Shown piece by piece: positions 3,673-63,350 of a DNA stretch of 64,000 bases (positions within the stretch are counted from its first letter, which is position 1; every line of letters begins with the position of its first letter). The stretch comes from a virus (Duplodnaviria > Heunggongvirae > Uroviricota > Caudoviricetes), in the IMG/VR virus record IMGVR_UViG_3300031952_000006; one strand, given 5' to 3'. The position numbers and the translations under genes were made by a program. Below the pieces are notes generated by a model, which saw only the letters and a program-made list of their open reading frames with translations, was not told where the DNA came from and did not search any database.

Positions 3673-4742
3673 TACCTTTTTACAAACCAAGTATAGATAT
3701 AGATATGGTTGAAGAACGCGTAGTAGACGCTCTTAGAACAGGTCAAGTTACCAATTGGGGACTTTATACAAAAGATCTTGAGTCAGAAATAGGAGAATAT
3801 CTTGGAAAGCCTGTTGTGCTTACTGCGTGCGGAACCCACGCACTAACTTTTGGATTGCTTGCCCTTGCTCATTATGGCTTGATTCCAAAGAATGCAAGGG
3901 TGCTTGTACCATCATTTACATTTTATGCGAGTGTCCATGCAATCATCTGGGCAAATATGATTCCAGTATTCTGTGACATACATCAAGATACATATACTAT
4001 GGATATTGACTCAGCTGTTGGACAGTTTGATGCTGTAATGCCTGTCAATGTTTTTGGTGTTCACTATGATATTGATTATATTAAGAAAAAAACTAATAAA
4101 CCAATAATAGGTGATAATAGTCATGGATTCGGAGGCTCTTTTTCTAGTAAGAGAAATGGAACATTAGAAGATGTATCTTGCTTTAGCTCAAGTATTACAA
4201 AACCGATGCAAACAATTGAAGGCGGTATTCTTGCTGCCAATGCTAATATAGTTGAATTTGTACGAGATTTTAGAAACTGGGGGAGTCCCCACGGTCAGTA
4301 TGATTGTAAGTACGCCGGGCAGTGGTCAAAGATAACAGAAATAAACGCAATAGTTGGTTTGAGTAGTATGATGCATCTGTCAACCTCAGTTGATAGAAAA
4401 AATGAAATTGCCGATATGTATAAAGAGAAATTAAACTCATATGTTGAATTTCAAGTAATCCCTGAAAATATAAAAACAACATACAAAGATTTTTCTATTT
4501 TGTTCACAGAAAATTCAATACGGGATAAAGTGAGTAGTATTCTTGATGAAAATAAAATAGGAAATAAAAAATATTTTTATCCTCCCGTACATAAAATGCA
4601 GTGCTTTGGCAATACCTACTTATCTGAAAAACTTCCTATTACAAATAATATCTCAGACAGAATACTTTGTTTACCAATGTATGATTCTATTACCGAAGAA
4701 GACATTGATCATATTTGCAAAACAATTATCTCTGCGCTCTAA
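3669..4742 (+). CDS. DegT/DnrJ/EryC1/StrS-family PLP-dependent sugar aminotransferase
   Basis: IPFYKPSI...ALRTGQVTNWG...LTACGTHAL, and SFSSSITKPMQTIEGG (Schiff-base Lys context). Start overlaps the previous stop. Confidence 0.8.
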   Translation: MIPFYKPSIDIDMVEERVVDALRTGQVTNWGLYTKDLESEIGEYLGKPVVLTACGTHALTFGLLALAHYGLIPKNARVLVPSFTFYASVHAIIWANMIPVFCDIHQDTYTMDIDSAVGQFDAVMPVNVFGVHYDIDYIKKKTNKPIIGDNSHGFGGSFSSKRNGTLEDVSCFSSSITKPMQTIEGGILAANANIVEFVRDFRNWGSPHGQYDCKYAGQWSKITEINAIVGLSSMMHLSTSVDRKNEIADMYKEKLNSYVEFQVIPENIKTTYKDFSILFTENSIRDKVSSILDENKIGNKKYFYPPVHKMQCFGNTYLSEKLPITNNISDRILCLPMYDSITEEDIDHICKTIISAL

Positions 4743-38972: not shown

Positions 38973-39192
38973 AAATATGCTCTATGTAGTTGGAGCAATG
39001 ATACTTGTATTTCTATTTTTTAGTGTGGCTTGCTACATAGTTGATAGAATGAACTGGAATAAGGGGAAATGTCTCTGTGGGGAACCCTGGTATAATTTTG
39101 ACACAGATAGTCAAGGCGGTCGCGGATACTCGTGCAGAAAATGCGGAAAAACTATATGGATAAGCTATCCAGTAGATAAGAGGAAACAATGA
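38950..39192 (+). CDS. small membrane-anchored zinc-ribbon protein (paralogue of 36751..37032)
   Basis: TM helix then WNKGKCLCGEPW...CRKCGKTIW. Confidence 0.45.
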   Translation: MHLNLSNENMLYVVGAMILVFLFFSVACYIVDRMNWNKGKCLCGEPWYNFDTDSQGGRGYSCRKCGKTIWISYPVDKRKQ

Positions 39193-39449
39193 GAAGAGAA
39201 GACTGCATTATTCATTGTATCGGTCCCCATTGTGAAGGATGCTTAACATATAAAAAGGAAGAAACTCCTAAAAAAGAGGTTACCATGAAGTACAAAGAAA
39301 TTTCCTATCGATTAGTTAAAAATCTTGGTAACTACTCAACAGAAACAATTGAATTACTGGCAACAGTTGAGAATGATCAAGACATAGATGAAGTATTCAA
39401 AGAAGTAAAAGCAAAAGTTCAACAGTTGCTTGGGCAAATACCAAAATAA
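39189..39449 (+). CDS. hypothetical Cys-containing protein (86 aa)
   Basis: ORF, ATGA-coupled. Confidence 0.4.
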   Translation: MRREDCIIHCIGPHCEGCLTYKKEETPKKEVTMKYKEISYRLVKNLGNYSTETIELLATVENDQDIDEVFKEVKAKVQQLLGQIPK

Positions 39450-39524
39450 ATTATAGAATTTCTAGAAAAATGATTGACTTTTATTATATTTGTTATTATT
39501 GTTATAACATAACGAGACAATATT

Positions 39525-39685
39525 ATGAAAATGATAACAAGACATGATCTAAATCAAAGCTGCCTGTTCCCCTCAACAAAAGAGGGAAACCCAGCAGTAT
39601 ATTGGGAATTTGACATCTTCCGATGATGGAATACATAGTCTATGGAACCAGAAAAACGGAAGATGTCAAAATCTTCCGTTTTTTT
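39525..39685 (+). promoter_or_regulatory. attenuator-like leader: 33-codon uORF plus mutually exclusive antiterminator/terminator hairpins
   Basis: uORF 39525-39626 ends inside GACATCTTCCG (39612-22). That arm can pair with CGGAAGATGTC (39657-67). The same segment also forms the hairpin CGGAAGAT / ATCTTCCG (39657-64 / 39671-78) followed by T7. Confidence 0.35.
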
Positions 39686-39849
39686 ATGCATGGATGATCA
39701 AAATTTTATAATAGATATTCGTGATAGCATACTAACTCTTATATTTGTAGAAAAGCAAAATAATATAAAAATAAGAGATTTTATAAAAAATGCCCAAGTA
39801 GCTCAAATGGATAGAGCAATAGTTTTGTAAACTATAGGTTGTTAGATCA

Positions 39850-40020
39850 TACCTGACCTTGGGCTAAGAAGAAACAGCTTATTGTGCCTAGGGCACCCTC
39901 CATAAAACGGATGAATGTCTATCCATGCCGGACCGCACTATGAATAGACACCCATGAAACACTCACGTTTGAGGAGACACTGAGGCGATTTGGATTGGTC
40001 ATCCTTCTGCCCAAGAAAAT
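39850..40020 (+). ncRNA. ORF-free GC-elevated segment with long-range pairing; candidate structured RNA
   Basis: CTTGGGC(TA)AGAAG at ~39857-71 pairs with CTTCTGCCCAAG at ~40003-14, enclosing ~130 nt that contain the local hairpin GTGCC-TAG-GGCAC. There is no ORF on either strand in an otherwise gene-dense genome. Confidence 0.25.
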
Positions 40021-40103
40021 ATCAGTTAAGGGTGCTGCTGTTTTCTATTTTTAAAGATGTGTATTACTAAAAAAGATTCTATTTTATACTATCAGGAGTT
40101 CAC

Positions 40104-40454
40104 ATGAAAATTAATATCTGTATATTATTAATACTGGTTACCAGTATTTCTTGTTCATCCTTAGCTAAGCTGACAGTAACACCATCAGGAGCAACTATTG
40201 GTGAGAATCAATCGAAATCTTTTGTAGCCGAAGGTTTTGATAAAAAAGGAAAAAAAGTTAAGATAAATCCGGCATGGTCGGTCGATACTGGAGGAGAGGA
40301 CATAGGAACTTTAACACAGCAATCGAACACAGAAGCTACGTTTAGATCAAAAGACTTTGGGGTTGCTGTAATAACTGTTGAGGAAAAAAAGATAAAGGCA
40401 TCTGCAAAGCTTTTCATTGCAAAAAAGAAAGTACCTCACATGCCCCAGAAGTGA
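40104..40454 (+). CDS. Big_2-like (bacterial Ig-like) lipoprotein (116 aa)
   Basis: Signal peptide with lipobox-like LVTSISCSS, then a single Ig-like domain pattern (KLTVTPSGATIGENQSKSFVAEGFDKKGKKV...WSVDTGG). Confidence 0.5.
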   Translation: MKINICILLILVTSISCSSLAKLTVTPSGATIGENQSKSFVAEGFDKKGKKVKINPAWSVDTGGEDIGTLTQQSNTEATFRSKDFGVAVITVEEKKIKASAKLFIAKKKVPHMPQK

Positions 40455-40567
40455 GTATTTTATATAGGTATGAATTAGCCTTTAAATCGTTTACAGGAAT
40501 TACGCTATCAACTGCCTGGTTTAAATAAAGAGTAGATTTAAAAGATCCGGTGCTGTCGGATCTCTAT

Positions 40568-40645
40568 CGCGGGATAGACCAAATGGCTAGGTCGGGTGGC
40601 TCATAACCACTGTCATTTTTGGAGGTTCAAATCCTTCTCCCGCTA
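40568..40645 (+). tRNA. tRNA, anticodon CAU (Met or Ile2)
   Basis: Acceptor CGCGGGA / TCCCGCT (C1·U72 mismatch). D stem GACC/GGTC. Anticodon stem GGTGG/CCACT with loop CTCATAA. T arm GGAGG-TTCAAAT-CCTTC. Unusually long 9-nt variable loop. Confidence 0.5.
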
Positions 40646-40770
40646 ATAATGAAGTAGCAAGAGCGATAAGGGTTCTGCTACCTAATACTAGTTAAAGCTC
40701 CTTGAGTGTATTTCCTAGGTTTGCCTGGGCGTTAAACTCAAAAACGTAGTACGCTACTTTATTATAAAAC

Positions 40771-40910
40771 GCCGGAGTAGCCCAATGGTTGAGGCACTTT
40801 TATTTTGAAAAAGCTAAAAACTTTACAGTTGGCATTACTCGAATGATTCGTCATTCCATCTATGGTAACTTACAAGCAAACAAATCTGAGTTCGAATCTC
40901 GGCTCCGGCA
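40771..40910 (+). tRNA. tRNA-Lys(UUU)-like gene carrying a 72-nt structured insert at the variable-loop position
   Basis: Perfect 7-bp acceptor GCCGGAG / CTCCGGC. D arm. Anticodon arm CTTTT-ATTTTGA-AAAAG (U33, TTT, G37). T arm CTGAG-TTCGAAT-CTCGG. Insert 40814-40885 contains GAATGA-TTCG-TCATTC. Confidence 0.5.
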
Positions 40911-40935
40911 CTTTTTTAGATCAGTAAGGACTAAT

Positions 40936-41097
40936 GAAATATACGAAAAAGCAGCATCGTTGGACTAAAGAAGAAATAGAAGAACTCGAATCTTTAATTA
41001 TTACAAAAACTAATCCAGAGCTAGCTAACTATTTCGAGGTATTTCAAAAAGTTCGTAAGAGAGAAATAGATAAGATTAAGAAGGAAAAAAAGTAATG
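40936..41097 (+). CDS. Myb/SANT-like small protein (53 aa), paralogue of the N-terminal domain of the HNH gene at 44470
   Basis: KKQHRWTKEEIEELESLIITKTNPELANYF vs KKHHWTAEEIEKLKNLSHTKSNPEIAAYF. Confidence 0.35.
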
Positions 41098-41418
41098 TGG
41101 TATGTCAACCAAGCAGGAGAATCCTTTAAATTCAGGAATGTTCTTACAAAAAGAATATTTCAAACAGCAGCATATAGTAATTTTATAAATATTAACATAT
41201 TAGACAGCGATTCAACTATAATAAATATTAACAAAGAAAGAACTCTTGGAGTACCTATAGAGACACTGGCAACAAAGGAAGATGCAGATTTATTTGTTAT
41301 ATACATAACAATATGCTTTGCTCGAAAACGATCGATTTGCTCTTATGAGGCTTACGAAACATTTAGAAAAGAATATGAACACAAAGTTAATGGAGTAAAA
41401 ATAAAAAAATACGGATAA
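41095..41418 (+). CDS. hypothetical protein (107 aa)
   Basis: ORF. Confidence 0.4.
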   Translation: MWYVNQAGESFKFRNVLTKRIFQTAAYSNFININILDSDSTIININKERTLGVPIETLATKEDADLFVIYITICFARKRSICSYEAYETFRKEYEHKVNGVKIKKYG

Positions 41419-41427
41419 AGGAGAAAA

Positions 41428-41706
41428 ATGAAAAAGCTTGGTATGCATGAAGGTCCTGTACGAAAGGGCGGTATTAGTAACAATAATTCATCCAATAAAC
41501 CAGATATCGCACCAGCGGGCCAGGGTTTAACTATACCAAATGCGATAGCACAAATTGATAAAGATAAACCACTGCAAGTACTAGCACAAATAGATAATGC
41601 TATAGTAGCTCTATATGCAGGCGATAAAGGAAGTTCTATTTCAGCTCTTAAGAAAGCAAAAAATATTCTTAAAAATTTTTGTAACGATGGGGGACATTTT
41701 TGGTAG
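41428..41706 (+). CDS. hypothetical protein (92 aa)
   Basis: AAGGAGAAAAATG SD. Confidence 0.4.
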   Translation: MKKLGMHEGPVRKGGISNNNSSNKPDIAPAGQGLTIPNAIAQIDKDKPLQVLAQIDNAIVALYAGDKGSSISALKKAKNILKNFCNDGGHFW

Positions 41707-41773
41707 CTGTAACTCAGTGGTAGAGTCCTTGACTGTGGATCAAGTTACGTAAGTTCAATTCTCACCAGTTACC
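41702..41773 (+). tRNA. tRNA-His (GUG) with encoded G-1
   Basis: G-1 (41702) opposite C73. Acceptor GTAGCTG / CAGTTAC. D arm ACTC-AGTGGTA-GAGT. Anticodon arm CTTGA-CTGTGGA-TCAAG. Confidence 0.65.
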
Positions 41774-41808
41774 CAGTTTTTTAAAATTAAATGAAAGGAG
41801 ATACATGA

Positions 41809-42000
41809 ATGGATCTTAAAGAACTTAAAACAGACGCAACAAAAAAATTAAAGGAGATTGAGAAGAGTAAAAAAGCGCTTGATGCATTTCTTCTCAAAGT
41901 TGAAGAGATTAGAACTGCTCCAAAAGATAAGAAAGAGAAACTCACTGAAAAACTTGAAGCGTGGCTTGGTAAAGCAGGTATCGCTGAAATACTATCATAA
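41809..42000 (+). CDS. small coiled-coil protein (63 aa)
   Basis: AAGGAGATACATGAATG SD. Confidence 0.35.
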   Translation: MDLKELKTDATKKLKEIEKSKKALDAFLLKVEEIRTAPKDKKEKLTEKLEAWLGKAGIAEILS

Positions 42001-42026
42001 TAAAAATTCGCCATCCTTGTAGAGAG

Positions 42027-42401
42027 ATGGCGAATTATTCTATTTTTGTGGAGAATTTTATGTTAAAATATATGTTGTATGCACAAGCAGGCGAAGGTTG
42101 TGATTATACCATAGCCTGTGGAAAAGAAGTATACATGTTATCTTCTTCGTCCATAGAAGAAGCCAAAAAGGAGACAGAGAAATTCATAAAGGAAAATTTT
42201 AGTTCGGACGAACACAGATTGAAAAAAGCTATTATTTATGAAGTAACCAAAAAAGTGATACTCGATATTGAAAGTATATATAAAGTAATAACTGCTAAAA
42301 TTATAGAAAAGTCTCTGGATGAGATCGTTGAAAAAGAAAGAATGGAGTATGAACGCCTAAAAAGAAAATTTGAAAAACAATACAATACTGGGGCATGTTA
42401 A
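42027..42401 (+). CDS. hypothetical protein (124 aa)
   Basis: ORF. Confidence 0.4.
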   Translation: MANYSIFVENFMLKYMLYAQAGEGCDYTIACGKEVYMLSSSSIEEAKKETEKFIKENFSSDEHRLKKAIIYEVTKKVILDIESIYKVITAKIIEKSLDEIVEKERMEYERLKRKFEKQYNTGAC

Positions 42402-42679
42402 TAATGGCAACACAGGAAAAGATCGATCTCGTGTGTAACAATTTTGCAAAATTTTTAAAAGAAAAGAATAAACGCTATGGAGATTCCGCAATAGCTCCTA
42501 TGCGAATTTTTTCTAAAAGTGAGGCAGGAAATCAGATATGCAATAGGCTTGATGACAAACTTAGCCGCATAAAGAATAGTACTGAATTGAAGAAGAATGA
42601 TTGTTCAGATATTTTGGGATACATGGTTCTTCTTATGATTGAAAAAGATTGGACAGAATTTGATGATTTATTGGATTAG
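42395..42679 (+). CDS. hypothetical protein (94 aa)
   Basis: ORF. Confidence 0.35.
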   Translation: MLIMATQEKIDLVCNNFAKFLKEKNKRYGDSAIAPMRIFSKSEAGNQICNRLDDKLSRIKNSTELKKNDCSDILGYMVLLMIEKDWTEFDDLLD

Positions 42680-42866
42680 TATAGTATGGCAATTAAGTTA
42701 TTATCAGACTGCAGGAAATGTAGTTTTTACAAAGAATTGGCCTATGGCAGCCTAGTTATATGTTCTCAATTGAAAGATATTGGTGCTCTCATAATCTCCC
42801 AACCCAGTCACGATAATCCTGGATTTTCGAATGGAACTATGATTGTTCTTTGCAGGAAGGATTGAT

Positions 42867-43139
42867 ATGCAAAAATGTCCTATTTGTGGAACTTCTCTTA
42901 TTGGAAGGGATTATTATGAAGAAATGCATCTAAGTGAGGCTTACTGGAGATGTTCTCACGATCATTATTGGTATGAATTTTCATACGGAACAACTATTGT
43001 TACTATAGGAACAAAGGTATTATCAGAATATTACAGTGATTCAGATAAGAAAAAAACAGAATTCAGACGTGATTGCGAAAAAGCAGTTTTTCAGTATCAG
43101 CAAAGATATAAATCTGACTTAGTCGCATTACTTGTATGA
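42867..43139 (+). CDS. zinc-ribbon protein
   Basis: MQKCPICG...CSHDH. GGAAGGATTGATATG SD favours ATG 42867. Confidence 0.4.
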   Translation: MQKCPICGTSLIGRDYYEEMHLSEAYWRCSHDHYWYEFSYGTTIVTIGTKVLSEYYSDSDKKKTEFRRDCEKAVFQYQQRYKSDLVALLV

Positions 43140-43149
43140 GAAGTATATA

Positions 43150-43329
43150 TGGAAAAAGATGAACTTAAGGTGATAGGTAATTTAATAGACGTTTCATACT
43201 TTTTACTTAGCGTTCTTACAAACCAACTCAAGGCTCAGCATGGTTCCAATATAACTATAATTGGTTTGGATGAAGCTCATAAAAATATTGATGATGCGCG
43301 AGAATGGTATTTTAAAAAGGATATTTAAA
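43150..43329 (+). CDS. hypothetical protein (59 aa, below ORF-track cutoff)
   Basis: ORF MEKDELKVIGNLIDVSYFLL.... Confidence 0.3.
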
Positions 43330-43527
43330 ATGAATGAATTTGTACAATATATACGAGAAGGAATATTTATGTTTTGCGGATCAGTAGTTGTAGCAGCAGT
43401 GCTGTCAGGATTCTACACGATATTTTTTAAAAAAATACCTATGCTTTTTAAAAAGAATCAAAAATCTCCTATAGAAAAAACGGATATTCAGGATTTGGAT
43501 GGAGATATATATGCAACAGAGGATTAA
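43330..43527 (+). CDS. small membrane protein
   Basis: MNEFVQYIREGIFMFCGSVVVAAVLSGFYTIFF with one TM helix. The ORF-track start 43261 overlaps the upstream ORF. Confidence 0.35.
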   Translation: MNEFVQYIREGIFMFCGSVVVAAVLSGFYTIFFKKIPMLFKKNQKSPIEKTDIQDLDGDIYATED

Positions 43528-43690
43528 TTATTTTATAGCAAACAAAGACGTTCCTATAGGAAATATTGAGTATGTAACAAAAGATATGAATGCTCAATTA
43601 GAAAAATTGAATTTATCCCTTGATAAGATAATTTCTATTATCGAAAGAGATAGTTACTTTATCGTATTTTACAAGGATTACACAGAATGA
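43499..43690 (+). CDS. hypothetical protein (63 aa)
   Basis: ORF. Confidence 0.3.
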   Translation: MEIYMQQRINYFIANKDVPIGNIEYVTKDMNAQLEKLNLSLDKIISIIERDSYFIVFYKDYTE

Positions 43691-43920
43691 TACGAATAAC
43701 TGTAGAGTTAATTCCTTTTGGAATAAAAGGTCTTAAAAGAAATATTGGTGAGATAGTTATTATAAATAGCATTGATCATCCAAAACGTCCCGAATATGGA
43801 AACTATGAAGTTACGATAAAAGATATAGGAAAAGATATTATAAAGGAACTGACGATAACAAACCATAAAAGAAAAGAGGGAGTCTGGGTATTACTTAAAA
43901 AAATTTTAGAGAATATCTGA
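43687..43920 (+). CDS. hypothetical protein (77 aa)
   Basis: ORF, ATGA-coupled. Confidence 0.35.
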   Translation: MIRITVELIPFGIKGLKRNIGEIVIINSIDHPKRPEYGNYEVTIKDIGKDIIKELTITNHKRKEGVWVLLKKILENI

Positions 43921-43986
43921 AAATAATCTTGACAGTTCTGAGACATAGTATATATGACATACATATTAAATAAATTATAATTATTA

Positions 43987-44163
43987 TGGATAATATGAAA
44001 GAACAAGGACAAGATCAAGTTACCTTCTCTATAGGTTGCCCTTCAAAAGATAAAAGAGATTCGCTGCGAAAATTGATACGGAAAATAGCAGCAAATGAGG
44101 ATGTTAAGAATTTTGATATAATCTATAAAGCCATTGCGCTTTATAGTAAACAAATTAAATGAA
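43987..44163 (+). CDS. small hypothetical protein (58 aa), possibly RHH-like
   Basis: ORF downstream of TTGACA (43929-34) + TATATG promoter-like element. QVTFSIGCPSKDKRDSLRKLIRK. Confidence 0.3.
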
Positions 44164-44200
44164 AATTATTCAGTGACACGCCACCTGCGTCATGCTTACA

Positions 44201-44276
44201 AGCAAAATAGCTCAGTTGGTAGAGCAGAAGTCTCATACACTTTAGGTCGTCAGTTCAATTCTGACATTTGCATCCA
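44201..44276 (+). tRNA. tRNA, anticodon CAU (Met or Ile2), CCA encoded
   Basis: D arm GCTC-AGTTGGTA-GAGC. Anticodon arm GAAGT-CTCATAC-ACTTT. T arm GTCAG-TTCAATT-CTGAC. Acceptor pairs at 2-6 only (A1·A72 and A7·A66 mismatches). CCA at 44274-76. Confidence 0.55.
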
Positions 44277-44319
44277 AAATAGCATATGCTACTCGCGTGT
44301 CTTTGAATGGTTTATATAT

Positions 44320-44456
44320 GGGGAAGTAGCTCAGTAGTAGAGCAACTTACGGCAAAATAAGTGTTAAAACTTTTTAATTACTGTTACTCACGCAGTTCGC
44401 TGCGTCACATTCAGTAATTTACAAGCAATGCAGTGGTGCAACTCCACTCTTCCCCA
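44320..44456 (+). ncRNA. non-canonical tRNA-like gene with ~70-nt structured insert (homologous to the insert in 40771..40910)
   Basis: Perfect acceptor GGGGAAG / CTTCCCC. Canonical D arm GCTC-AGTAGTA-GAGC. Stem ACTTA/TAAGT with an 8-nt loop CGGCAAAA (no U33). T stem AGTGG/CCACT with atypical loop TGCAACT. Insert 44363-44430 has AATTACTG...ACGCAG-TTCG-CTGCGT...CAGTAATT. Confidence 0.4.
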
Positions 44457-44469
44457 AAATACATAACAT

Positions 44470-44994
44470 ATGTATAGTATGAAAAAACATCACTGGACAG
44501 CAGAAGAAATAGAAAAGTTAAAAAACCTTTCTCATACAAAATCCAACCCAGAGATAGCTGCATACTTTGGTATTACACCAAAAGCAGCTGAAAGAGCAAT
44601 GGCTAGGTATGGTATAAAAAGAGATAAGAAATTAATAAGTAAAATATTAAGTAATACTGGTAAAAAGAATCATGAGAAATATAATTATTTTGGAGAGAAT
44701 AATCCATTTTGGAAAGGGGGCATAAGCAAAAATAAGTACCATTATAAAAAATTGCAAATGCAGTGATATCCAGAAAGAGTAAAAGCGCGTAGGCTTGTTT
44801 ATATTGAAATAAAAGCAGGTAGATTAAAAAGAGGAAAGTGTGAGATTTGTAAAAAACTAAATGCCGAAGCGCACCATAATGATTACTCAAAACCATTAGA
44901 AATAAGGTGGTTCTGTAAAAAACACCATAGAGAGTATCATAATACTTTATGTATTTTAATTCTTTTCTCTTTCATACTTATTTCAATGAAATAA
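44470..44994 (+). pseudogene. HNH homing endonuclease (Myb-like N-domain + HNH C-domain) interrupted by a single in-frame TGA at 44764-66
   Basis: Same frame before and after the stop: ...KKLQMQ * YPERVKARRLVYIEIKAGRLKRGKCEICKKLNAEAHHNDYSKPLEIRWFCKKHHREYH (HNH motif). Sits inside the tRNA cluster. Confidence 0.5.
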
Positions 44995-45032
44995 TTATCA
45001 AAGAATAAAGGATTCCATCAGAGAATAGTTAC

Positions 45033-45104
45033 AAGCTTATTGTGCAATTGGTAGCACACCAGTTTTTAGGACCGGCAGTGGGAGTTCAAGTCTCTCTAAG
45101 TTTA
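45033..45104 (+). tRNA. tRNA with anticodon UUA (ochre/amber-suppressor-like), embedded in a stem-flanked unit 45010-45135
   Basis: Acceptor AAGCTTA / TAAGTTT. D arm GTGC-AATTGGTA-GCAC. Anticodon stem CCAGT/ACCGG (one A·C mismatch) with loop TTTTAGG (U33, TTA, G37). T arm GGGAG-TTCAAGT-CTCTC. 5' flank GGATTC...GAGAATAG pairs with 3' flank CTATTATC...GAATCC, then T6. Confidence 0.45.
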
Positions 45105-45144
45105 CACATACTATTATCAACTCGAATCCTTTTTTCAGTCATAA

Positions 45145-45447
45145 ATGGAGGTTCTTATGACACGCAGACAAAATGAAATAGCTCCTGTAGTAATCACACC
45201 ACTTAATGTAAGCGACGACATTCGCAACAAAATCTTTGTTACGATTGATGGCCGCGACTGGCAAAAAGATCTGTCAGAGCTTGGTCTCACCTTTGACTCT
45301 TCAGAGCGTGATATAATGTCACGTCTTACTCCGCTAATCCAGGAAGAGTTTAACCAAGACATCAGCGATACGTATAAGATTCGCAAGGCAATCAATAGTC
45401 AAAATATCTATGTTATTCCGAACAGTACTGCAGGAATTGTCCTGTAG
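45145..45447 (+). CDS. hypothetical protein (100 aa)
   Basis: AATGGAGG SD. Lies between the two stem-flanked RNA units. Confidence 0.45.
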   Translation: MEVLMTRRQNEIAPVVITPLNVSDDIRNKIFVTIDGRDWQKDLSELGLTFDSSERDIMSRLTPLIQEEFNQDISDTYKIRKAINSQNIYVIPNSTAGIVL

Positions 45448-45617
45448 CTGTTTATAAGCAGCGCCTCCATCAGAGTAGAGCTACAAGCAAATTTTCCAAG
45501 TTCGAATCTTGGAATCGCCGCAGGGCGATTTGGCCGATTGGATAAGGCAAAAGACTTGAAATCTTTGATATAGCACAAACGCTCTACTCAACTCGAGGCA
45601 CTGCTTATACACAGCTA
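45445..45617 (+). ncRNA. Y-RNA-like element: long bipartite closing stem plus circularly permuted tRNA-like module, immediately upstream of Ro60 gene
   Basis: The 21-nt arms 45445-65 and 45597-617 are complementary with 2 mismatches. A second helix AGAGTAGAGC / GCTCTACTC follows. The enclosed hairpins run in the order T-arm (CCAAG-TTCGAAT-CTTGG), acceptor-like (AATCGCC-GCAG-GGCGATT), D-like (GCC-GATTGGATAA-GGC), anticodon-like (AAAGA-CTTGAAA-TCTTT). Ends 14 nt before the Ro60 start codon. Confidence 0.5.
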
Positions 45618-45631
45618 TAAGGAGAATTATT

Positions 45632-47233
45632 ATGCAAGAACCAACACTATCCTATCTCTCTAATGAAGATCGTCTGAAAGCCTACAATGCCATCGTTGGA
45701 GGGTGCGAACACGTATACTCAAAAGGAAAACTACAGCATGAGAAACTTGCTGGAGTACTTAGCATATTCATTCAGCTTGCAGAGCATGATCCATACTTTC
45801 TTGCTCACTTTGCTTCATATGCTGTTAAGAACCTTGAAAGTAAAGACTTGAAGGTCATAGCTGCATTTGCAAACTCACTGTCTGATGCAGATGGTACTCC
45901 CTTCATCACCGGAAAGGATGCTCAAGGAAAACCTATCTATAGTCCGACATACAAGAAACCAAATCTTCGGTTGGTGTCACAAGCTGCTGTTCAGGAGTTC
46001 GATCCTAAGCTGGTGAATCGTATTATCGAAATTGCCAACTTAAAGCAATCGATCGGAACCAGAAGAGAGGCAACACACTTTGCCAATTCTTTAAAAACCG
46101 CTATCAAGAAATGGGTACGCTTTCGTGAACAAAATCCGAAGGCTCTTGAAGGTATGAAGAAATCAGGTTTCGCACCAACCTTCAAAAACATTTACCGGAT
46201 GATGCACATGAAACCAAGCCAGGAAGCTGCAGAGATTCTCGGTTGGAGACAGGGCAGCACAAAGAAAGGAAACGTTGAGAAGATTGAAAAAAGAAATCTC
46301 ATAGATTTCAAAGGGCTTACTGACATTCAAATTGCTCAGAAAATTCGTGATGAGAAGATCCCAGTCTTAGGCGCTATGGGAGCTCTACCTTCTAAGATAT
46401 CTCCCGTCATTGCTGCAGCTGTCCTTGAGCAAGCATCAGGAAACCAAGCAGTCATTCTCAGAAATCTGTTTGATAGTCAGGGTCTGCTTAAAGATAAAGA
46501 AGTAATGAGGGTCTTCACTGAAAAGATTCAGACTGCCAAAACAGCACTGGATAGGGTTGAAAAACTCAACACCGAAGTCGATGAAGAAGTTCAAAAAGTT
46601 CTGAAGACAGCTAAAGCTGATAAGCGTAAAAAGGATGTCGGAAATGTTGGACGTGCCTATATCCATATTGACATCAGCGGCAGCATGACCGGTGCTATCG
46701 AATTCGCCAAGAACAATGGTGCAATCATTGCTGAGTGTATTGAGAATCCTGCAGAGAACTTCTTCTGGGGAGCATTCAATACCAATGGATATTCTTTGTC
46801 TAAACCGGCATCATTTGAAAAAGATGCATTCATGGCTTCTCTGTATGGTCTCAATGCTGGTGGCGGAACAAACTGCCTTGCTTGCTACAGCGATGCTCGA
46901 AAGAACAACTGTGATATTGATATCTACATCACCGACCAAGAGCATATGGGAGAGCCTATTGACCAGCTCATTCTTAAATATGATGCGCAGGGATTCTCCC
47001 GGCCAAAAGCTGTCGTCGTTGTTGACTTTTCGAATGGAAGAAGCAATGGATCTTTTAAAGATCATCTTGAAAGAGTAGGGATTCCTGTTTCTGTTATAAA
47101 ACCGCAAGCACTGACAGAAAGTGCGCTGGTCTCTCAGGCAATTAAGACTGCTTTGAAGGGAGCTACTGCAGTTATTGATGAAATCATGAATACCCCGTTA
47201 CTCAAACTTCCAGCATACTGGGAAGCAGTGTAA
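45632..47233 (+). CDS. rsr: Ro60/Rsr orthologue (TROVE-like helical N-terminal region + C-terminal vWA domain)
   Basis: 533 aa. N-terminal ~340 aa helical repeats. C-terminal vWA with MIDAS DISGSM...T...ITDQE. Co-located with the Y-RNA-like element. AAGGAGA SD. Confidence 0.6.
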   Translation: MQEPTLSYLSNEDRLKAYNAIVGGCEHVYSKGKLQHEKLAGVLSIFIQLAEHDPYFLAHFASYAVKNLESKDLKVIAAFANSLSDADGTPFITGKDAQGKPIYSPTYKKPNLRLVSQAAVQEFDPKLVNRIIEIANLKQSIGTRREATHFANSLKTAIKKWVRFREQNPKALEGMKKSGFAPTFKNIYRMMHMKPSQEAAEILGWRQGSTKKGNVEKIEKRNLIDFKGLTDIQIAQKIRDEKIPVLGAMGALPSKISPVIAAAVLEQASGNQAVILRNLFDSQGLLKDKEVMRVFTEKIQTAKTALDRVEKLNTEVDEEVQKVLKTAKADKRKKDVGNVGRAYIHIDISGSMTGAIEFAKNNGAIIAECIENPAENFFWGAFNTNGYSLSKPASFEKDAFMASLYGLNAGGGTNCLACYSDARKNNCDIDIYITDQEHMGEPIDQLILKYDAQGFSRPKAVVVVDFSNGRSNGSFKDHLERVGIPVSVIKPQALTESALVSQAIKTALKGATAVIDEIMNTPLLKLPAYWEAV

Positions 47234-52780: not shown

Positions 52781-53908
52781 ATGTCAGAATATTATAACAA
52801 AATACATTTTGAAACATATGAAGAATCATCAAAGATGATACATGCATACGTGCAACTTCCTATGATACCCTTCTACGAAATTATCGATACTCTCAATGAA
52901 CAATTAAAGAGTAAGTATACAGCATTTCCGTATGACAGTGCATGCAGCGCTTATGCAGAACATGTATTTGATAAACTCAAAAAGCATACAAGTGCTGCTA
53001 AAGGTGGTATTAATGAACTACGTTCCCGTTTTTGGGATATCTATATGCCTTATATGTTTTACAAATCAGGTAAGAAAGTATTCAGACCAACAAAAGAATT
53101 GGTACACATGCTGGTTGATACCGAATTAAAGAATCTTGATGCTTTTTTTGTGCAATCACCATTCAAATGCATTTTCATTGCAATACCATCCGAAGTAAAA
53201 CTAATGAATCCGTTCAATCTACCAATTGATGGATTATACATAGCAGTATTTAACAAAGATGAGATACACTTCGATGGATTCTCTGAAGAATTTCAAAAGT
53301 ATGAAAAATATAAAAATAGTAAAAATGTTGTTATCTGTGCCGTCAGTGATATTGTACTACCTTTAGATGATCCTCGAGAGACAATGTATTATTGGAACAT
53401 AGCATTACGTGACGGTGATTTATTTGAACAAATAGATGTCATACTTGAAAGGTATGATAAAGAATATCAAAAGAAAGAATATGATTACTGCAACAAAGCC
53501 TATGATAGAACATTTCTAGAAAACATTTTATCGTTTTCAATTAATACGCTACTATATATCAACTCAAAAGACCCAAAAGAATTTGGGATCACTCCTATTA
53601 AAAAGGCAAACGTACAAAATTTAAAAAACAAAGCAAAAATACGAAAAGCCCAAAAGAAAACTCAAATACCGTATTATACCATAGGTCAAAACATTACTAT
53701 TGATCACTCATATAAGAATGTCATAAAAATGTATGAACCTGAGTTATCTCATCAGAGAAAGCTTTCAGGTAAATGGATTGTTCGGGGTCACTGGCGTAGT
53801 CAAGCCCACGGAAAAGAATTCAAAGAAAGAAAGATTATCTGGATTCAGCCATATGCCAAAGGGGAGGAGTTTGCAGAAATTATTGAGAAAGAATACGTAG
53901 TAAAATAA
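52781..53908 (+). CDS. hypothetical protein (375 aa)
   Basis: ORF. Confidence 0.4.
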   Translation: MSEYYNKIHFETYEESSKMIHAYVQLPMIPFYEIIDTLNEQLKSKYTAFPYDSACSAYAEHVFDKLKKHTSAAKGGINELRSRFWDIYMPYMFYKSGKKVFRPTKELVHMLVDTELKNLDAFFVQSPFKCIFIAIPSEVKLMNPFNLPIDGLYIAVFNKDEIHFDGFSEEFQKYEKYKNSKNVVICAVSDIVLPLDDPRETMYYWNIALRDGDLFEQIDVILERYDKEYQKKEYDYCNKAYDRTFLENILSFSINTLLYINSKDPKEFGITPIKKANVQNLKNKAKIRKAQKKTQIPYYTIGQNITIDHSYKNVIKMYEPELSHQRKLSGKWIVRGHWRSQAHGKEFKERKIIWIQPYAKGEEFAEIIEKEYVVK

Positions 53909-62906: not shown

Positions 62907-63350
62907 ATGGGAATGGTAGATCATGCAAAAGAGGAACTAAAATATTTGAGAGGGTCTGATACATCTCACGATGACATGCAAGACCTTATCGAAAAAAACA
63001 TTATTGAAATAATAGAAGTTTTCGCAGCGCAAGGGCACAGTGGCGGTTCGGCTGGTTATTGCATACCTATTATACATGCTTTGCTGAAGCAAGAAAACAT
63101 TACACCTTTAACTGGGGAAGATCATGAATGGCAAGAAGTTTCACCGGGAGTATTTCAAAATAAACGTATGAGTTCTATCTTTAAAGATAAGAACAGATTT
63201 GATGGTCAAGCATATTGGATAGATGGTAAAATCTTTTCAGATGATGGTGGAAAAACTTGGGTCACAAATAGTGATAGTTTTGTTCCTATTACATTCCCTG
63301 TTTTAGAGCTAGTTTCAGAAAGAATAATAAGAAAACAAGAAGGAGAATAA
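62907..63350 (+). CDS. hypothetical protein (147 aa)
   Basis: ORF. Confidence 0.4.
   Translation: MGMVDHAKEELKYLRGSDTSHDDMQDLIEKNIIEIIEVFAAQGHSGGSAGYCIPIIHALLKQENITPLTGEDHEWQEVSPGVFQNKRMSSIFKDKNRFDGQAYWIDGKIFSDDGGKTWVTNSDSFVPITFPVLELVSERIIRKQEGE

What the first reader, a model, noticed from the sequence alone, without database searches (positions are those of the whole stretch)
45010..45135. Suppressor-like tRNA (anticodon UUA) housed in a second Y-RNA-style stem unit, 300 nt upstream of the Ro60 locus
A 72-nt cloverleaf at 45033-45104 has the anticodon loop TTTTAGG, so the anticodon is 5'-UUA-3', which would decode UAA (and UAG by wobble). The anticodon stem has one A·C mismatch. All genes in this window appear intact in the standard code, so a general ochre suppressor would have no evident recoding role here. 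The flanks share a leader (TCCATCAGAG.ATAG.TACAAGC) and trailer (TCAACTCGA) with the Y-RNA-like element. Those flanks are complementary (GGATTC...GAGAATAG / CTATTATC...GAATCC) and are followed by T6. The tRNA therefore sits in the same long-stem context as the Ro60-adjacent RNA. It may be a second Ro60 ligand rather than, or in addition to, a decoding tRNA.
Basis: partly seen in the sequence, partly recalled or inferred. Interest (0 to 1): 0.65.

Follow-up and report, generated by a model that had tools for sequence, protein, structure and literature searches.

The report
tRNA body in Ro60 docking stem
The "stop-codon tRNA" is real as a shape, but it is one of five RNAs in this phage (and about 60 in related phages) that join a tRNA-like body to one conserved stem next to a divergent Ro60 gene, so it is more likely a Y-RNA-type partner of Ro60 than a stop-codon suppressor.

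Summary
Window 45033-45104 is a canonical-core cloverleaf with UUA at the anticodon position. Its leader and trailer form the same two-helix, internal-loop stem as the RNA in front of the 533-aa gene.

That gene has a Ro60 fold (TROVE ring plus vWA), although Pfam misses it.

The stem is a conserved, portable handle: helix, loop C-N3-5 opposite N-ACU-Y, helix, then YUACAAGC. It occurs 90 times near homologous Ro60-like genes, always on their strand. Both helices covary heavily.

The handle joins tRNA bodies in three arrangements:
- Type I: on the acceptor ends, as in this element.
- Type II: as a giant variable arm.
- Type III: as a permuted YrlA-like RNA.

Suppression is not supported:
- TAA is the commonest stop codon here, and no recoding appears in about 83 kb.
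- The orthologous element in close relatives carries ACG or GCA loops with A33.
- Type I acceptor stems are usually degenerate (5-6 of 7 pairs), unlike plain tRNAs and type II elements.

This copy, however, keeps 7 of 7 pairs with G3:U70 and A73, so processing and charging are not excluded.

Best reading: a new topological variant of the Ro60-associated tRNA-like Y RNA. Ro60 binding is inferred, not shown.

The parts
45010..45015 (+). Handle, outer helix s1, 5' strand (GGAUUC). Pairs with 45124-45129.
   Evidence: Read and paired in the fold. This helix is paired in 59-63 of 63 distinct modules, with 3-5 pair types per position.
45016..45020 (+). Handle, 5' side of the internal loop (CAUCA).
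   Evidence: The first base is C in 62 of 63 modules, although the scan did not require it. The loop is identical in the Ro60-adjacent RNA at 45468-45472.
45021..45029 (+). Handle, inner helix s2, 5' strand (GAGAAUAGU). Pairs with 45110-45118, with one mismatch.
   Evidence: Every s2 pair shows compensatory changes across the type I elements.
45030..45036 (+). Junction motif UACAAGC. Its last four bases are positions 1-4 of the cloverleaf.
   Evidence: TACAAGC or CACAAGC closes the 5' strand in all modules. It occurs 143 times on the + strand against 32 times on the - strand of the related loci.
45033..45104 (+). tRNA-like cloverleaf: 71 nt plus discriminator A73. The acceptor stem has 7 of 7 pairs with G3:U70, and no CCA is encoded.
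   Evidence: ARAGORN, Rfam tRNA 52.6 bits, and my reading.
45064..45070 (+). Anticodon loop UUUUAGG, with UUA at 45066-45068.
   Evidence: The loop is replaced by CAACGAA, CAGCAAA or AAGCAAA in orthologous elements.
45110..45118 (+). Handle, inner helix s2, 3' strand (ACUAUUAUC).
45119..45123 (+). Handle, 3' side of the internal loop (AACUC). Together with the next bases it reads CUCGAA.
   Evidence: All modules have N-ACU-Y here, though the ACU was imposed by the scan. The sequence is CGAA-like, as in the published Y-RNA-like motif (PMC4201824, PMC12135203).
45124..45129 (+). Handle, outer helix s1, 3' strand (GAAUCC).
45130..45135 (+). U6 run directly after the closing helix. It is the probable transcript end, as in an intrinsic terminator.
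   Evidence: Read. The run is kept in the orthologues L001, L006 and L075-L080. Its function is inferred.
45145..45447 (+). Small conserved partner gene (96-100 aa) between this RNA and the next.
   Evidence: tblastn finds it directly upstream of the Ro60-like gene in about 35 loci. The AF2 model has pLDDT 80 and a beta-beta-alpha-beta-beta fold, with no significant PDB match.
45448..45615 (+). Type III handle RNA of the classical YrlA kind. Order: an extra outer helix, then the handle, T arm, closed 7-bp acceptor hairpin, D arm and an anticodon-like arm with loop CUUGAAA.
   Evidence: The fold gives -64.6 kcal/mol, z = -7.0. Rfam tRNA scores 28.2 bits at 45524-45584. Module scan.
45632..47233 (+). 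Ro60-fold protein (TROVE ring plus vWA domain with a MIDAS motif), 533 aa.
   Evidence: AF2 model with pLDDT 80.9. The top 12 Foldseek PDB hits are all Ro60/TROVE, E = 1.7e-9 to 7.6e-7 over the full length. A profile search of PDB sequences finds only RO60, E = 3.2e-5. D347, S349, S351, T413 and D435 are invariant.
44165..44300 (+). Type I handle RNA around a Met(CAU)-like tRNA body at 44201-44273. The acceptor stem has 5 of 7 pairs and the trailer reads U-CCA-AAA.
44320..44456 (+). Type II element: a tRNA body with a perfect acceptor stem (GGGGAAG/CUUCCCC) and the handle, closed by a loop, inserted in the variable region.
   Evidence: Rfam tRNA scores 40.6 bits with a 76-nt insert. Module scan.
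40771..40910 (+). Type II element: a tRNA body (acceptor GCCGGAG/CUCCGGC, loop AUUUUGA) with the handle as a giant variable arm.
   Evidence: Rfam tRNA scores 39.6 bits.

Best explanation
Window 45010-45135 is one gene for a chimeric RNA. It consists of a tRNA-shaped body whose 5' leader and 3' trailer pair into a conserved handle.

The handle runs: 6-bp helix; internal loop C-N3-5 opposite N-ACU-Y; 9-bp helix; YUACAAGC junction. A U run follows and probably ends the transcript.

The handle is the common element of a family of RNAs encoded beside a divergent phage Ro60 (TROVE plus vWA fold) and a roughly 100-aa partner protein.

Most likely the handle is the Y-RNA-type docking stem for that Ro60. 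If so, this RNA is a Y RNA paralogue with an unusual topology, type I: a non-permuted cloverleaf attached through its acceptor end. By analogy with YrlA, Ro60 would hold the stem while the tRNA-shaped module is presented to a tRNA-binding factor.

The UUA triplet is one state of a fast-changing anticodon-like loop. It is not a dedicated ochre suppressor.

Shown: the structure, membership of the family, covariation of the helices, linkage to the Ro60 fold, lack of anticodon conservation, and absence of recoding.

Inferred: Ro60 binding, the transcript ends, lack of aminoacylation, and the effector.
For: Family membership.
- The same handle occurs 5 times in the window.
- It occurs 90 times in sequences fetched through the Ro60-like protein, all on that gene's strand and none on the opposite strand.
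- 32 of 46 loci of at least 4 kb carry at least one copy.

The helices are real.
- 95% of helix cells are paired, against 33-43% when the partner strand is slid by 1-3 positions. Each position shows 3-6 pair types. The 95% is inflated, because modules were selected for pairing.
- RNAalifold, run independently on 16 type I elements, predicts both handle helices plus the D, anticodon and T arms. 27 of its 29 pairs show compensatory changes. It does not predict the acceptor stem.

The neighbouring protein is Ro60-like in fold.

Published YrlA and Yrl RNAs share several features:
- They lie within 4 kb of Ro60, on the same strand, several per locus.
- They pair their two ends into a stem.
- They carry a tRNA-like domain.
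- They have a YUAY junction and a CGAA motif.
Sources: PMC4201824, bioRxiv 10.1101/312249, PMC12135203.

Evidence against a decoding role.
- Orthologous elements carry ACG or GCA loops with A33, and their top acceptor pairs are broken.
- tRNA calls that start at the handle have acceptor stems of 5/7 (10 cases), 6/7 (8) and 7/7 (3). Plain tRNAs of the same loci have 7/7 in 110 of 122.
- Type II elements, whose acceptor end is free, have 7/7 in 12 of 14.
- A purine at position 33, or an odd loop length, occurs in 6 of 21 handle tRNAs and in 0 of 122 plain tRNAs.
- TAA ends 49 of 91 genes, and the standard code gives intact dense genes over the window plus 18.6 kb of flanks.
Against: - No binding data exist. 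Assigning the handle to Ro60 rests on genomic linkage and analogy.
- The published 5'-strand motif GNCGAAN0-1G is absent. The only CGAA-like sequence lies on the 3' strand.
- No Rfam family other than tRNA matches the region.
- This copy, unlike most type I elements, has a perfect 7-bp acceptor stem, U33, an intact tRNA core, and G3:U70 with A73.
- The copy is kept unchanged in 8 or more independent assemblies. It could therefore be cut out by RNase P and 3' processing, receive CCA, and be charged.
- Some type I relatives look like ordinary tRNAs, for example L030 Asp-GUC and Ile-UAU, and L019.
- 14 of 46 loci show no strict module. Short flanks or divergence of the motif may explain this.
Confidence: 0.6

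Rival explanations
1. It is a working ochre suppressor tRNA. The handle is only a precursor structure. RNase P and 3' nucleases release a 72-nt tRNA. The host CCA-adding enzyme completes it. AlaRS charges it through G3:U70 and A73. It then reads UAA, and UAG by wobble, during infection.
For: - The cloverleaf has a canonical core, U33, a 7-nt loop and a 7/7 acceptor stem.
- The AlaRS identity pair is present (read; the identity rule is established knowledge).
- The allele is identical in 8 further contigs from different samples.
- M. smegmatis YrlA is cut by RNase P and receives CCA (PMC4201824).
- Phages with the standard code can carry suppressor tRNAs (bioRxiv 10.1101/2021.08.26.457843).
- 'TAAtaa' tandem stops follow 7 of 49 TAA-ending genes. 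The signal is weak and was not calibrated.
Against: - TAA is the commonest stop, at 54% of genes. Known phage recoding uses TAG or TGA, with TAA kept as the stop (same preprint).
- No in-frame stops appear, and coding density does not rise under a TAA-sense code beyond what noise gives.
- The sister allele and the orthologues have other triplets, A33 and broken acceptor tops, so neither the anticodon nor chargeability is conserved.
- The class shows acceptor decay.
- The anticodon stem carries an A29.C41 mismatch.
Confidence: 0.2
2. The handle has nothing to do with Ro60. It is instead a processing or mobility signal of the phage tRNA cluster. Examples would be a site for a double-strand or structure-specific nuclease that releases tRNAs and excises the variable-arm inserts, or the footprint of a mobile cassette.
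For: - The handle flanks or interrupts tRNA bodies, as leader-trailer stems or introns do.
- Bodies appear swapped inside constant outer stems. L001 differs from the window in this way, and two alleles share one 5' half.
- Small paralogous ORFs with homing-endonuclease-like PHROG hits follow both type II elements.
- In 14 of 46 loci the Ro60-like gene has no strict module nearby.
Against: - Excising the hairpin from type II elements at the helix ends would leave a variable region of about 29 nt, not a normal tRNA (my reading).
- The window's type III element has a closed 7-bp acceptor hairpin capped by a tetraloop, so it could not mature into a tRNA without an added cut.
- No nuclease or ligase gene was found next to the cluster.
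- All modules found came from loci fetched through the Ro60-like protein. They always lie on its strand and usually within 4 kb.
- No ribozyme or intron family matches the region.
Confidence: 0.12
3. It is a decaying tRNA pseudogene, and its UUA triplet and flanking complementarity have no function.
For: - The anticodon stem has an A.C mismatch, and the anticodon is one that no standard tRNA carries.
- The loop is not conserved between alleles.
Against: - The tRNA core and both handle helices are maintained by compensatory change across the family.
- The element keeps its position, outer stem and U run in relatives.
- It is invariant in 8 further contigs from different samples.
Confidence: 0.05

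Closest known systems
YrlA (Y RNA-like A) of bacteria and mycobacteriophages (Chen et al. 2014, PMC4201824; Wang et al. 2018, bioRxiv 10.1101/312249)
   Same: - Encoded close to a Ro60 gene, on the same strand, with several RNAs per locus.
- The 5' and 3' ends pair into a long stem.
- Carries a tRNA-like domain with canonical T and D arms.
- A YUAY motif sits at the junction with the stem (here YUAC).
- A CGAA-like sequence lies in the stem region.
- The window's own RNA at 45448-45615 has the permuted order of T arm, closed acceptor hairpin, then D arm.
   Different: - In the flagged element the cloverleaf is not permuted.
- It has a complete anticodon arm.
- The stem is attached to the acceptor end, not at the anticodon stem.
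- The GNCGAAN0-1G motif of the 5' strand is missing.
- In the permuted and variable-arm relatives the stem leaves the body at the variable-arm position and a separate anticodon arm is present. Published YrlA lacks an anticodon loop.
- The partner protein is too divergent for Pfam TROVE.
[quoted passage not shown]
   Same: It is a Ro60-bound tRNA-like RNA with a 7-bp acceptor stem and a free CCA end, still tied to the Ro60 stem. This is the same topology as the type II elements here. It also matches the type III elements of distant relatives, which encode discriminator plus CCA inside the acceptor loop.
   Different: That RNA is two pieces produced by cleavage. Type II here is a single chain with the stem closed by a loop. 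The flagged type I element has the stem on the acceptor end instead.
Thermus phage phiLo Ro60 with Yrl1 and Yrl2 (PMC12135203; PDB 9KOP, 9L5Y)
   Same: It is a phage-encoded Ro60 with two Y-RNA-like genes just upstream. Those RNAs have a stem-bulge-stem design with a CGAA motif. The protein is among the best structural matches to the 533-aa protein.
   Different: About 13% sequence identity. No tRNA bodies with anticodon arms are described for Yrl1 or Yrl2. No small partner gene is described.
Vertebrate Y RNAs
   Same: - The terminal stem carries a conserved C on the 5' strand next to the helix.
- The Ro-contacting sequence is GGUCCGA (quoted in PMC4201824); here the 5' strand reads R-G-U-U-C-C-A.
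- The 3' end is a U run.
- From memory, the human Y1 3' strand reads ...CACUUGAC..., close to the N-ACUUGAAC found here. This was not checked with a tool.
   Different: - Vertebrate Y RNAs have no tRNA-like module.
- They are Pol III transcripts.
- The Rfam Y_RNA model does not match the window.
Phage suppressor tRNAs of stop-codon-recoded phages (Borges et al., bioRxiv 10.1101/2021.08.26.457843)
   Same: A phage gene with a cloverleaf and a stop-reading triplet, in a low-GC genome.
   Different: - Those phages recode TAG or TGA and keep TAA as the stop. Here TAA is the main stop and nothing is recoded.
- The triplet is not conserved between alleles.
- The gene is embedded in the Ro60 handle.
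Phage tRNAs with anticodon-loop changes that escape host anticodon nucleases (van den Berg et al. 2023, PMC10264068)
   Same: These are tRNA arrays in phages whose anticodon loops deviate from host-like loops. Several handle RNAs copy real loops (Arg-ACG, Cys-GCA, Asn-GUU) with a changed position 33.
   Different: Those are working tRNAs with changes outside position 33. Here the nearly universal U33 is replaced by a purine and the RNAs carry a Ro60-type stem. No link to nucleases was tested.

Membership tests
Functional (suppressor) tRNA | Cloverleaf with the conserved tertiary core, recognised by tRNA predictors | tested here: met
   ARAGORN tRNA-Stop(tta). Rfam tRNA 52.6 bits against a gathering score of 29. 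U8, A14, G18G19, A15:U48, G53:C61 and UUCAAGU read.
Functional (suppressor) tRNA | 7-nt anticodon loop with U33 and a purine at 37, and an intact anticodon stem | tested here: inconclusive
   The loop UUUUAGG has U33 and G37. The stem has an A29.C41 mismatch. Among plain tRNAs of these loci with A36, position 37 is A in 17 and G in 7, so G37 is not disqualifying.
Functional (suppressor) tRNA | 7-bp acceptor stem with discriminator, maintained by selection | tested here: inconclusive
   This copy has 7/7 pairs and A73. Its orthologues have 5/7 (L006, L009) or 6/7 (L001). The class of handle-attached tRNAs has 5-6/7 in 18 of 21, against 7/7 in 110 of 122 plain tRNAs.
Functional (suppressor) tRNA | Anticodon conserved in orthologous genes | tested here: not met
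   The same locus in relatives carries CAACGAA (L006, L007, L075-L080), CAGCAAA (L009) or AAGCAAA (L001).
Functional (suppressor) tRNA | Codons to decode: in-frame stops or a recoded stop in the genome | tested here: not met
   Standard-code ORFs of at least 100 aa cover 77% of the + strand. Stop usage is TAA 49, TGA 23 and TAG 19. All long read-through extensions are the next gene, with its own start. The 18.6 kb of flanks, which include a baseplate gene, are intact. About 7-20 kb of the genome was not seen.
Functional (suppressor) tRNA | 5' and 3' maturation, CCA addition and aminoacylation | not testable with these tools
   No CCA is encoded (A73 is followed by CAC). G3:U70 with A73 would predict charging by AlaRS, if the RNA is processed.
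Y RNA / YrlA-type Ro60-associated RNA | Encoded within a few kb of a Ro60 orthologue, on the same strand | tested here: met
   The element ends 497 nt upstream of the 533-aa ORF, on the same strand. The Ro60 fold of that ORF is shown. 90 of 90 modules lie on the gene's strand.
Y RNA / YrlA-type Ro60-associated RNA | [quoted passage not shown] | tested here: met
   Two covarying helices flank the loop C-N3-5 opposite N-ACU-Y.
Y RNA / YrlA-type Ro60-associated RNA | GNCGAAN0-1G motif near the 5' end (PMC4201824) | tested here: not met
   The 5' strand reads GGAUUCCAUCAGAG. The only CGAA is on the 3' strand (CUCGAAUCC), and many relatives have UGAA there.
Y RNA / YrlA-type Ro60-associated RNA | tRNA-like domain with the T arm 5' of the D arm and a closed acceptor hairpin (permuted) | tested here: not met
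   The flagged element has the normal tRNA order. The neighbouring RNA at 45448-45615 does meet this feature.
Y RNA / YrlA-type Ro60-associated RNA | Physical binding to Ro60 | not testable with these tools
   Linkage and analogy only.
Y RNA / YrlA-type Ro60-associated RNA | Match to a curated RNA family model | tested here: not met
   cmscan of 39000-46000 at E up to 10 lists only tRNA among plausible hits. No Y RNA family appears.
Ro60 / TROVE protein (for the 533-aa neighbour) | HEAT-repeat ring plus a C-terminal vWA domain with a MIDAS motif | tested here: met
   The top 12 Foldseek hits are Ro60/TROVE over about 560-597 aligned columns, with TM about 0.5. DxSxS, T and D are invariant.
Ro60 / TROVE protein (for the 533-aa neighbour) | Sequence match to Pfam TROVE | tested here: not met
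   No Pfam hit even at E up to 10. Only PDB RO60 matches, at E = 3.7e-4 for the single sequence and 3.2e-5 for the profile.

The most novel reading that the evidence does not exclude
A lineage of large tailed phages uses one portable Ro60 handle. The handle is grafted onto tRNA bodies in three circular permutations:
- on the acceptor end;
- as a giant variable arm of otherwise perfect tRNAs;
- as a permuted YrlA-like RNA, in some relatives with an encoded CCA.

If the handle does dock the divergent Ro60, these particles carry tRNAs or tRNA decoys with defined and rapidly exchanged anticodon loops. Those loops include stop-reading triplets (UUA here, UCA in L039) and U33-to-purine copies of the Arg, Cys and Asn loops.

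That would physically couple Ro60 to particular tRNA identities. One possible use is as decoys or sensors against host anticodon nucleases, given that the cassette lies in a region with anti-defence genes. It would also supply living intermediates for the proposed origin of Y RNAs from tRNAs.
Probability: 0.3. Interest if true: 0.8.

Novelty: new variant of a known kind. Interest (0 to 1): 0.62.

Why it matters
What the tRNA-like module of bacterial Y RNAs is for, and how Y RNAs arose, are open questions. Published YrlA RNAs lack an anticodon loop and a free acceptor end.

Here the same kind of Ro60-linked stem is found on complete tRNA bodies with identifiable anticodon loops, in three topologies within one gene cluster. 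That gives a natural series from tRNA to Y RNA. It also gives specific, testable ligands, each RNA naming a tRNA identity.

It defines a large phage-specific Ro60 family that domain databases miss, together with a conserved small partner protein.

For annotation, it shows that "suppressor tRNA" calls next to Ro60-like genes should not be read as evidence of stop-codon recoding.

Tried and rejected
- **Annotated phage search.** blastn of 44900-45700 against 50,697 phage records found no match.
- **Single-protein scan of viral contigs.** It found nothing. The alignment-based scan was needed and found 8 loci.
- **Exact motif search in early loci.** CATCAGAG...CAAGC had no hits, because only the loop C, the ACU and YACAAGC are conserved.
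- **Pattern scan of viral contigs.** TTCC-N-TACAAGC-N-ACTTGAA gave 120 stretches. Four passed the pairing filter, but on inspection they are coding-like chance matches. None encodes the Ro60-like or partner protein. The scan says nothing about whether the handle occurs without the gene.
- **Alternative codes.** A TAG-sense code joins two large ORFs (13914-17978 and 17991-21854). The second has its own start 12 nt downstream, as do all other long extensions. I rejected this as read-through.
- **Shifted anticodon register.** Reading the loop as UUUAGGA, a Leu-UAG-like loop, would require a stem that cannot pair, so I rejected it. UUUAGG does recur in L046_3754 and L013_2001.
- **G37 after A36 as an argument against function.** I dropped it, because 7 of 24 plain tRNAs with A36 have G37.
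- **Ribozyme, intron or bulge-helix-bulge reading of the handle.** No Rfam match, and the geometry is not bulge-helix-bulge.
- **RNA repair or processing genes nearby.** Pfam scans of 14 neighbouring ORFs found only Band_7 and HNH.
- **Donor of the UUA allele's 3' half.** None was found in the fetched data.
- **Fold of the small partner protein.** No significant PDB match.
Full report
**1. The observation**

- ARAGORN reports a tRNA with anticodon tta at 45033-45105.
- The Rfam tRNA model scores 52.6 bits at 45033-45104, with a single non-standard pair, A29.C41, in the anticodon stem.

Reading the bases gives the following.
- The acceptor stem is AAGCUUA/UAAGUUU, 7 of 7 pairs, with G3:U70.
- The discriminator is A73, and no CCA is encoded.
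- The tRNA core is complete: U8, A14, G18G19, A15:U48, G53:C61, and T loop UUCAAGU.
- The 7-nt loop UUUUAGG places UUA at 45066-45068.

The flanks are GGAUUC|CAUCA|GAGAAUAGU|UAC on the 5' side. On the 3' side they are CACAU|ACUAUUAUC|AACUC|GAAUCC followed by U6. These flanks pair in the minimum-free-energy fold.

The RNA in front of the 533-aa ORF has the same layout, with identical loops and compensated helices: GCCUC|CAUCA|GAGUAGAGC|UACAAGC ... GCUCUACUC|AACUC|GAGGC.

**2. The neighbouring protein has a Ro60 fold**

- Pfam finds nothing, even at E = 10.
- A sequence search of the PDB finds only human RO60, at E = 3.7e-4 for the single sequence and 3.2e-5 for a 37-sequence profile.
- An AlphaFold model has pLDDT 80.9. 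Its twelve best PDB matches are all Ro60/TROVE structures aligned over the full length, E = 1.7e-9 to 7.6e-7. They include the Ro60 of Thermus phage phiLo.
- The MIDAS residues are invariant in the family: D347, S349, S351, T413 and D435.

Distribution of the family:
- More than 300 members at E <= 0.001 in metagenomes.
- It occurs on IMG/VR viral contigs of up to 253 kb.
- It occurs in only one of 185,579 cellular species genomes.

The window belongs to a tailed phage. A Baseplate_J gene lies 7 kb upstream of the window start.

**3. The stem is a conserved, portable module**

Reading the relatives showed the same leader-trailer design around, or inside, most tRNA-like genes next to the Ro60-like gene.

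I wrote a scanner anchored on YACAAGC and ACUY that requires at least 8 of 9 and at least 5 of 6 pairs in the two helices.
- It finds 90 modules in the window plus the 66 loci fetched to that point. All lie on the strand of the Ro60-like gene and none on the other strand.
- In the non-redundant set, YACAAGC occurs 143 times on that strand and 32 times on the other.
- 77 of the 143 reach at least 13 of 15 pairs, against 0 of 32.

Among 63 distinct modules:
- The first base of the 5' loop is C in 62, although the scan did not require it.
- Each helix position shows 3-6 different standard pair types.
- 95% of cells pair, against 33-43% when the partner strand is slid. The 95% is inflated by the selection criterion; the strand asymmetry and the slid controls are not.

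RNAalifold on 16 elements of the flagged type independently predicts both handle helices and the D, anticodon and T arms. 27 of its 29 pairs show compensatory changes.

The window holds exactly five modules. No other YACAAGC site scores above 12 of 15.

**4. Three topologies**

- **Type I.** The handle is formed by the leader and trailer of a normally ordered cloverleaf. Examples are the flagged element and 44165-44300.
- **Type II.** The same handle is closed by a loop at its outer end and inserted between the anticodon stem and the T arm, making a giant variable arm. Examples are 40771-40910 and 44320-44456. Rfam aligns these as tRNAs with inserts of about 76 nt.
- **Type III.** The handle is followed by the T arm, an acceptor hairpin, the D arm and an anticodon-like arm. 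This is the permuted order of published YrlA. The example is 45448-45615. In distant relatives the acceptor hairpin has 7 bp followed by a discriminator, CCA, a spacer, and then the 5' strand (L017, L018, L030).

All three are circular permutations of one secondary structure.

**5. Comparison with the literature**

Chen et al. 2014 (PMC4201824) define YrlA RNAs by these features:
- They lie within 4 kb of Ro60 and on its strand.
- They have a terminal stem.
- They carry a GNCGAAN0-1G motif.
- They have a YUAY at the start of the variable region.
- They have T and D arms in permuted order.

The same paper shows that M. smegmatis YrlA is cut by RNase P and receives CCA.

Wang et al. 2018 (bioRxiv 10.1101/312249) stress that YrlA lacks an anticodon loop and a free CCA end, and discuss an origin from tRNAs.

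The phiLo study (PMC12135203) shows a phage Ro60 binding two upstream stem-bulge-stem RNAs that carry a CGAA motif.

The RNAs here share the linkage, the terminal stem, the YUAC junction and the tRNA-like arms. They differ in several ways:
- They keep a full anticodon arm.
- The stem attaches at the variable position (types II and III) or at the acceptor end (type I).
- The 5'-strand motif is absent.
- No Rfam model other than tRNA matches.

I found no description of types I or II in the papers searched.

**6. Is the flagged element a suppressor?**

Evidence against:
- **Stop usage.** TAA ends 49 of 91 genes, TGA 23 and TAG 19.
- **Code.** The standard code gives dense, unidirectional, intact genes. 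Every long extension beyond a stop is simply the next gene in the same frame with its own start.
- **Flanks.** A further 18.6 kb of flanks, including virion genes, is equally intact.
- **Precedent.** Known phage recoding affects TAG and TGA, while TAA remains the preferred stop (bioRxiv 10.1101/2021.08.26.457843).
- **Orthologues.** The element at the same position differs in relatives, although the outer helix, U run and downstream gene are the same:
  - L006, L007 and L075-L080 (Ro60-like protein 95% identical in L006 and L007): loop CAACGAA.
  - L009: loop CAGCAAA.
  - L001: a different body, with loop AAGCAAA.
  - All of these loops have A33, and the top acceptor pairs are broken.
- **Acceptor stems as a class**:

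| Set | 5/7 pairs | 6/7 pairs | 7/7 pairs |
|---|---|---|---|
| tRNA calls that begin at the handle (n = 21) | 10 | 8 | 3 |
| Plain tRNAs of the same loci (n = 122) | 3 | 9 | 110 |
| Type II elements with a recognised T arm (n = 14) | 1 | 1 | 12 |

The acceptor stem is therefore kept where its end is free, and decays where the handle sits on it. This argues that type I RNAs are not matured and charged.
- **Loop anomalies.** A purine at position 33, or an odd loop length, occurs in 6 of 21 handle tRNAs and in 0 of 122 plain tRNAs.

Evidence for:
- This particular copy has 7/7 pairs, U33, and the AlaRS identity set G3:U70 with A73.
- It is identical in 8 further assemblies from different samples.
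- Some type I relatives look like ordinary tRNAs.

I therefore put a working suppressor at about 0.2.

**7. Mechanism proposed**

The steps that are shown:
- The handle is a selected structure.
- It is shared by all five RNAs of the cluster.
- It is genomically tied to a Ro60-fold protein and to a conserved 96-100-aa partner. The partner lies directly upstream of the Ro60-like gene in about 35 loci.

The steps that are inferred:
- The Ro60-like protein docks on the handle, as Ro60 docks on the conserved stem of Y RNAs.
- The U run ends the transcript.
- The tRNA-shaped body is displayed to a tRNA-binding factor.

Three observations hint that the anticodon-like loop matters to that factor:
- The loops imitate specific tRNAs.
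- Two alleles share an identical 5' half but have different loops.
- The cluster lies in an accessory region containing genes with precomputed Pfam hits AcrVA2-like and Tad3.

A role against tRNA-targeting defences is conceivable (PMC10264068) but untested.

**8. Verdict**

The feature is real and non-random. Its best filing is as a new topological variant of the Ro60-associated, tRNA-like Y RNAs. It is partnered with a Ro60 family that is undetectable at the domain-database level.

The suppressor reading is unlikely but not excluded for this copy.

Noticed in passing
window 40771-40910 and 44320-44456: Two tRNA genes with perfect G-starting acceptor stems carry an insert of about 70-76 nt between the anticodon stem and the T arm. 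The insert is the same handle, closed by a loop (type II). ARAGORN misses both; Rfam aligns them as tRNA with a large insert. One has the loop AUUUUGA (UUU). The other has an 8-nt loop, CGGCAAAA.
   Followed up: yes
window 45145-45447: A 96-100-aa ORF lies between the flagged RNA and the next one. It is conserved directly upstream of the Ro60-like gene in about 35 loci. The AF2 model has pLDDT 80 and a beta-beta-alpha-beta-beta fold. The tail ...IPNS-x-AG is conserved. There is no Pfam hit and no significant PDB match. It is probably a subunit or cofactor of the Ro60 system.
   Followed up: partly
L006, L007 and L075-L080 compared with window and L067-L074: Two stable alleles of the flagged element circulate. 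The handle and the 5' half are near-identical: within the first 51 nt of the element they differ only at position 9 (U/A) and by one D-loop U. The 3' two-thirds differ: loop UUUUAGG against CAACGAA, and different T stems and acceptor 3' strands. No intermediates and no donor sequence were found.
   Followed up: partly
window 45033-45104 and L019 7157-7229: The two 7/7 handle-attached tRNA bodies that I inspected base by base carry anticodons UUA and CAG, and both have G3:U70 with A73, the AlaRS identity set. ARAGORN's third 7/7 call, L046 3654-3727 (Asp-GUC), starts G1 A2 C3, so it has no G3:U70. If processed, the first two would insert alanine at UAA and at CUG.
   Followed up: no
L039 about 3700-3800 (type II element): Another handle RNA has the loop UUUCAAU, that is, UCA at the anticodon position (opal-reading). 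Stop-reading triplets therefore recur in this RNA family.
   Followed up: no
L001 1678, L004 2917 and 3076, L006 1453, L009 1157, L029 8271, L030 1140, L039 3562: The anticodon-like loops copy real tRNA loops (Arg-ACG, Cys-GCA, Asn-GUU) but have A or G at position 33 in place of the near-universal U. This never occurs in the 122 plain tRNAs of the same loci.
   Followed up: partly
window 40934-41095 and 44470-44766: Paralogous small ORFs start right after each of the two type II elements. Their N-termini read M-K-(Y/K)-x-K-x-H-(R/H)-W-T-x-E-E-I-E-x-L. The longer one has weak PHROG hits to D5-like regulators and HNH endonucleases. This may be a mobile cassette of RNA plus ORF.
   Followed up: no
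window 44165-44300; also L001 1435-1559, L006 659-782, L014 3453-3576: Type I elements with Met(CAU)- or Ile(GAU)-like bodies have A1.A72 or A1.G72 mismatches. Their trailer reads U-CCA-AAA, so a discriminator plus CCA is encoded inside the handle trailer.
   Followed up: partly
window 39866-40050: The region after tRNA-Thr contains AGCTTATTGTGC, identical to positions 2-13 of the flagged cloverleaf, followed by a GUGCC/GGCAC hairpin. It may be a remnant of a related element, or another structured RNA.
   Followed up: no
window-wide stop codons: 7 of 49 TAA-terminated genes are followed at once by a second in-frame TAA, against 1 of 42 for genes ending in TGA or TAG. This was not calibrated against other AT-rich phages, so it is at most a weak hint of protection against read-through.
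   Followed up: partly
window 52781-53908 and 62907-63350; L202 4017-4217: Precomputed Pfam hits on identical proteins name AcrVA2-like and Tad3 domains, and Lar_restr_allev in a relative. The region downstream of the Ro60 cassette therefore looks like an anti-defence island.
   Followed up: no
L002 2311-3474: In a relative whose Ro60-like protein is 79% identical, an IS605 OrfB/TnpB (Cas12f-like) gene sits just upstream of the partner gene, where the window has its type I element. That locus has no tRNA calls.
   Followed up: no
L004 2680-2810: An RNA-like stretch starts GGGGGGCUGAU and ends ...GACCCCCUCCA. Inside it carries the UUACAAGC junction and a hairpin of the ACUU..AAUG type. It may be a further handle-bearing RNA with a different body.
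   Followed up: no
L011, L018, L033, L034, L039, L042, L046: The Ro60-like gene is regularly flanked by large arrays of 8-24 ordinary tRNA genes. The handle RNAs sit between the array and the gene.
   Followed up: partly
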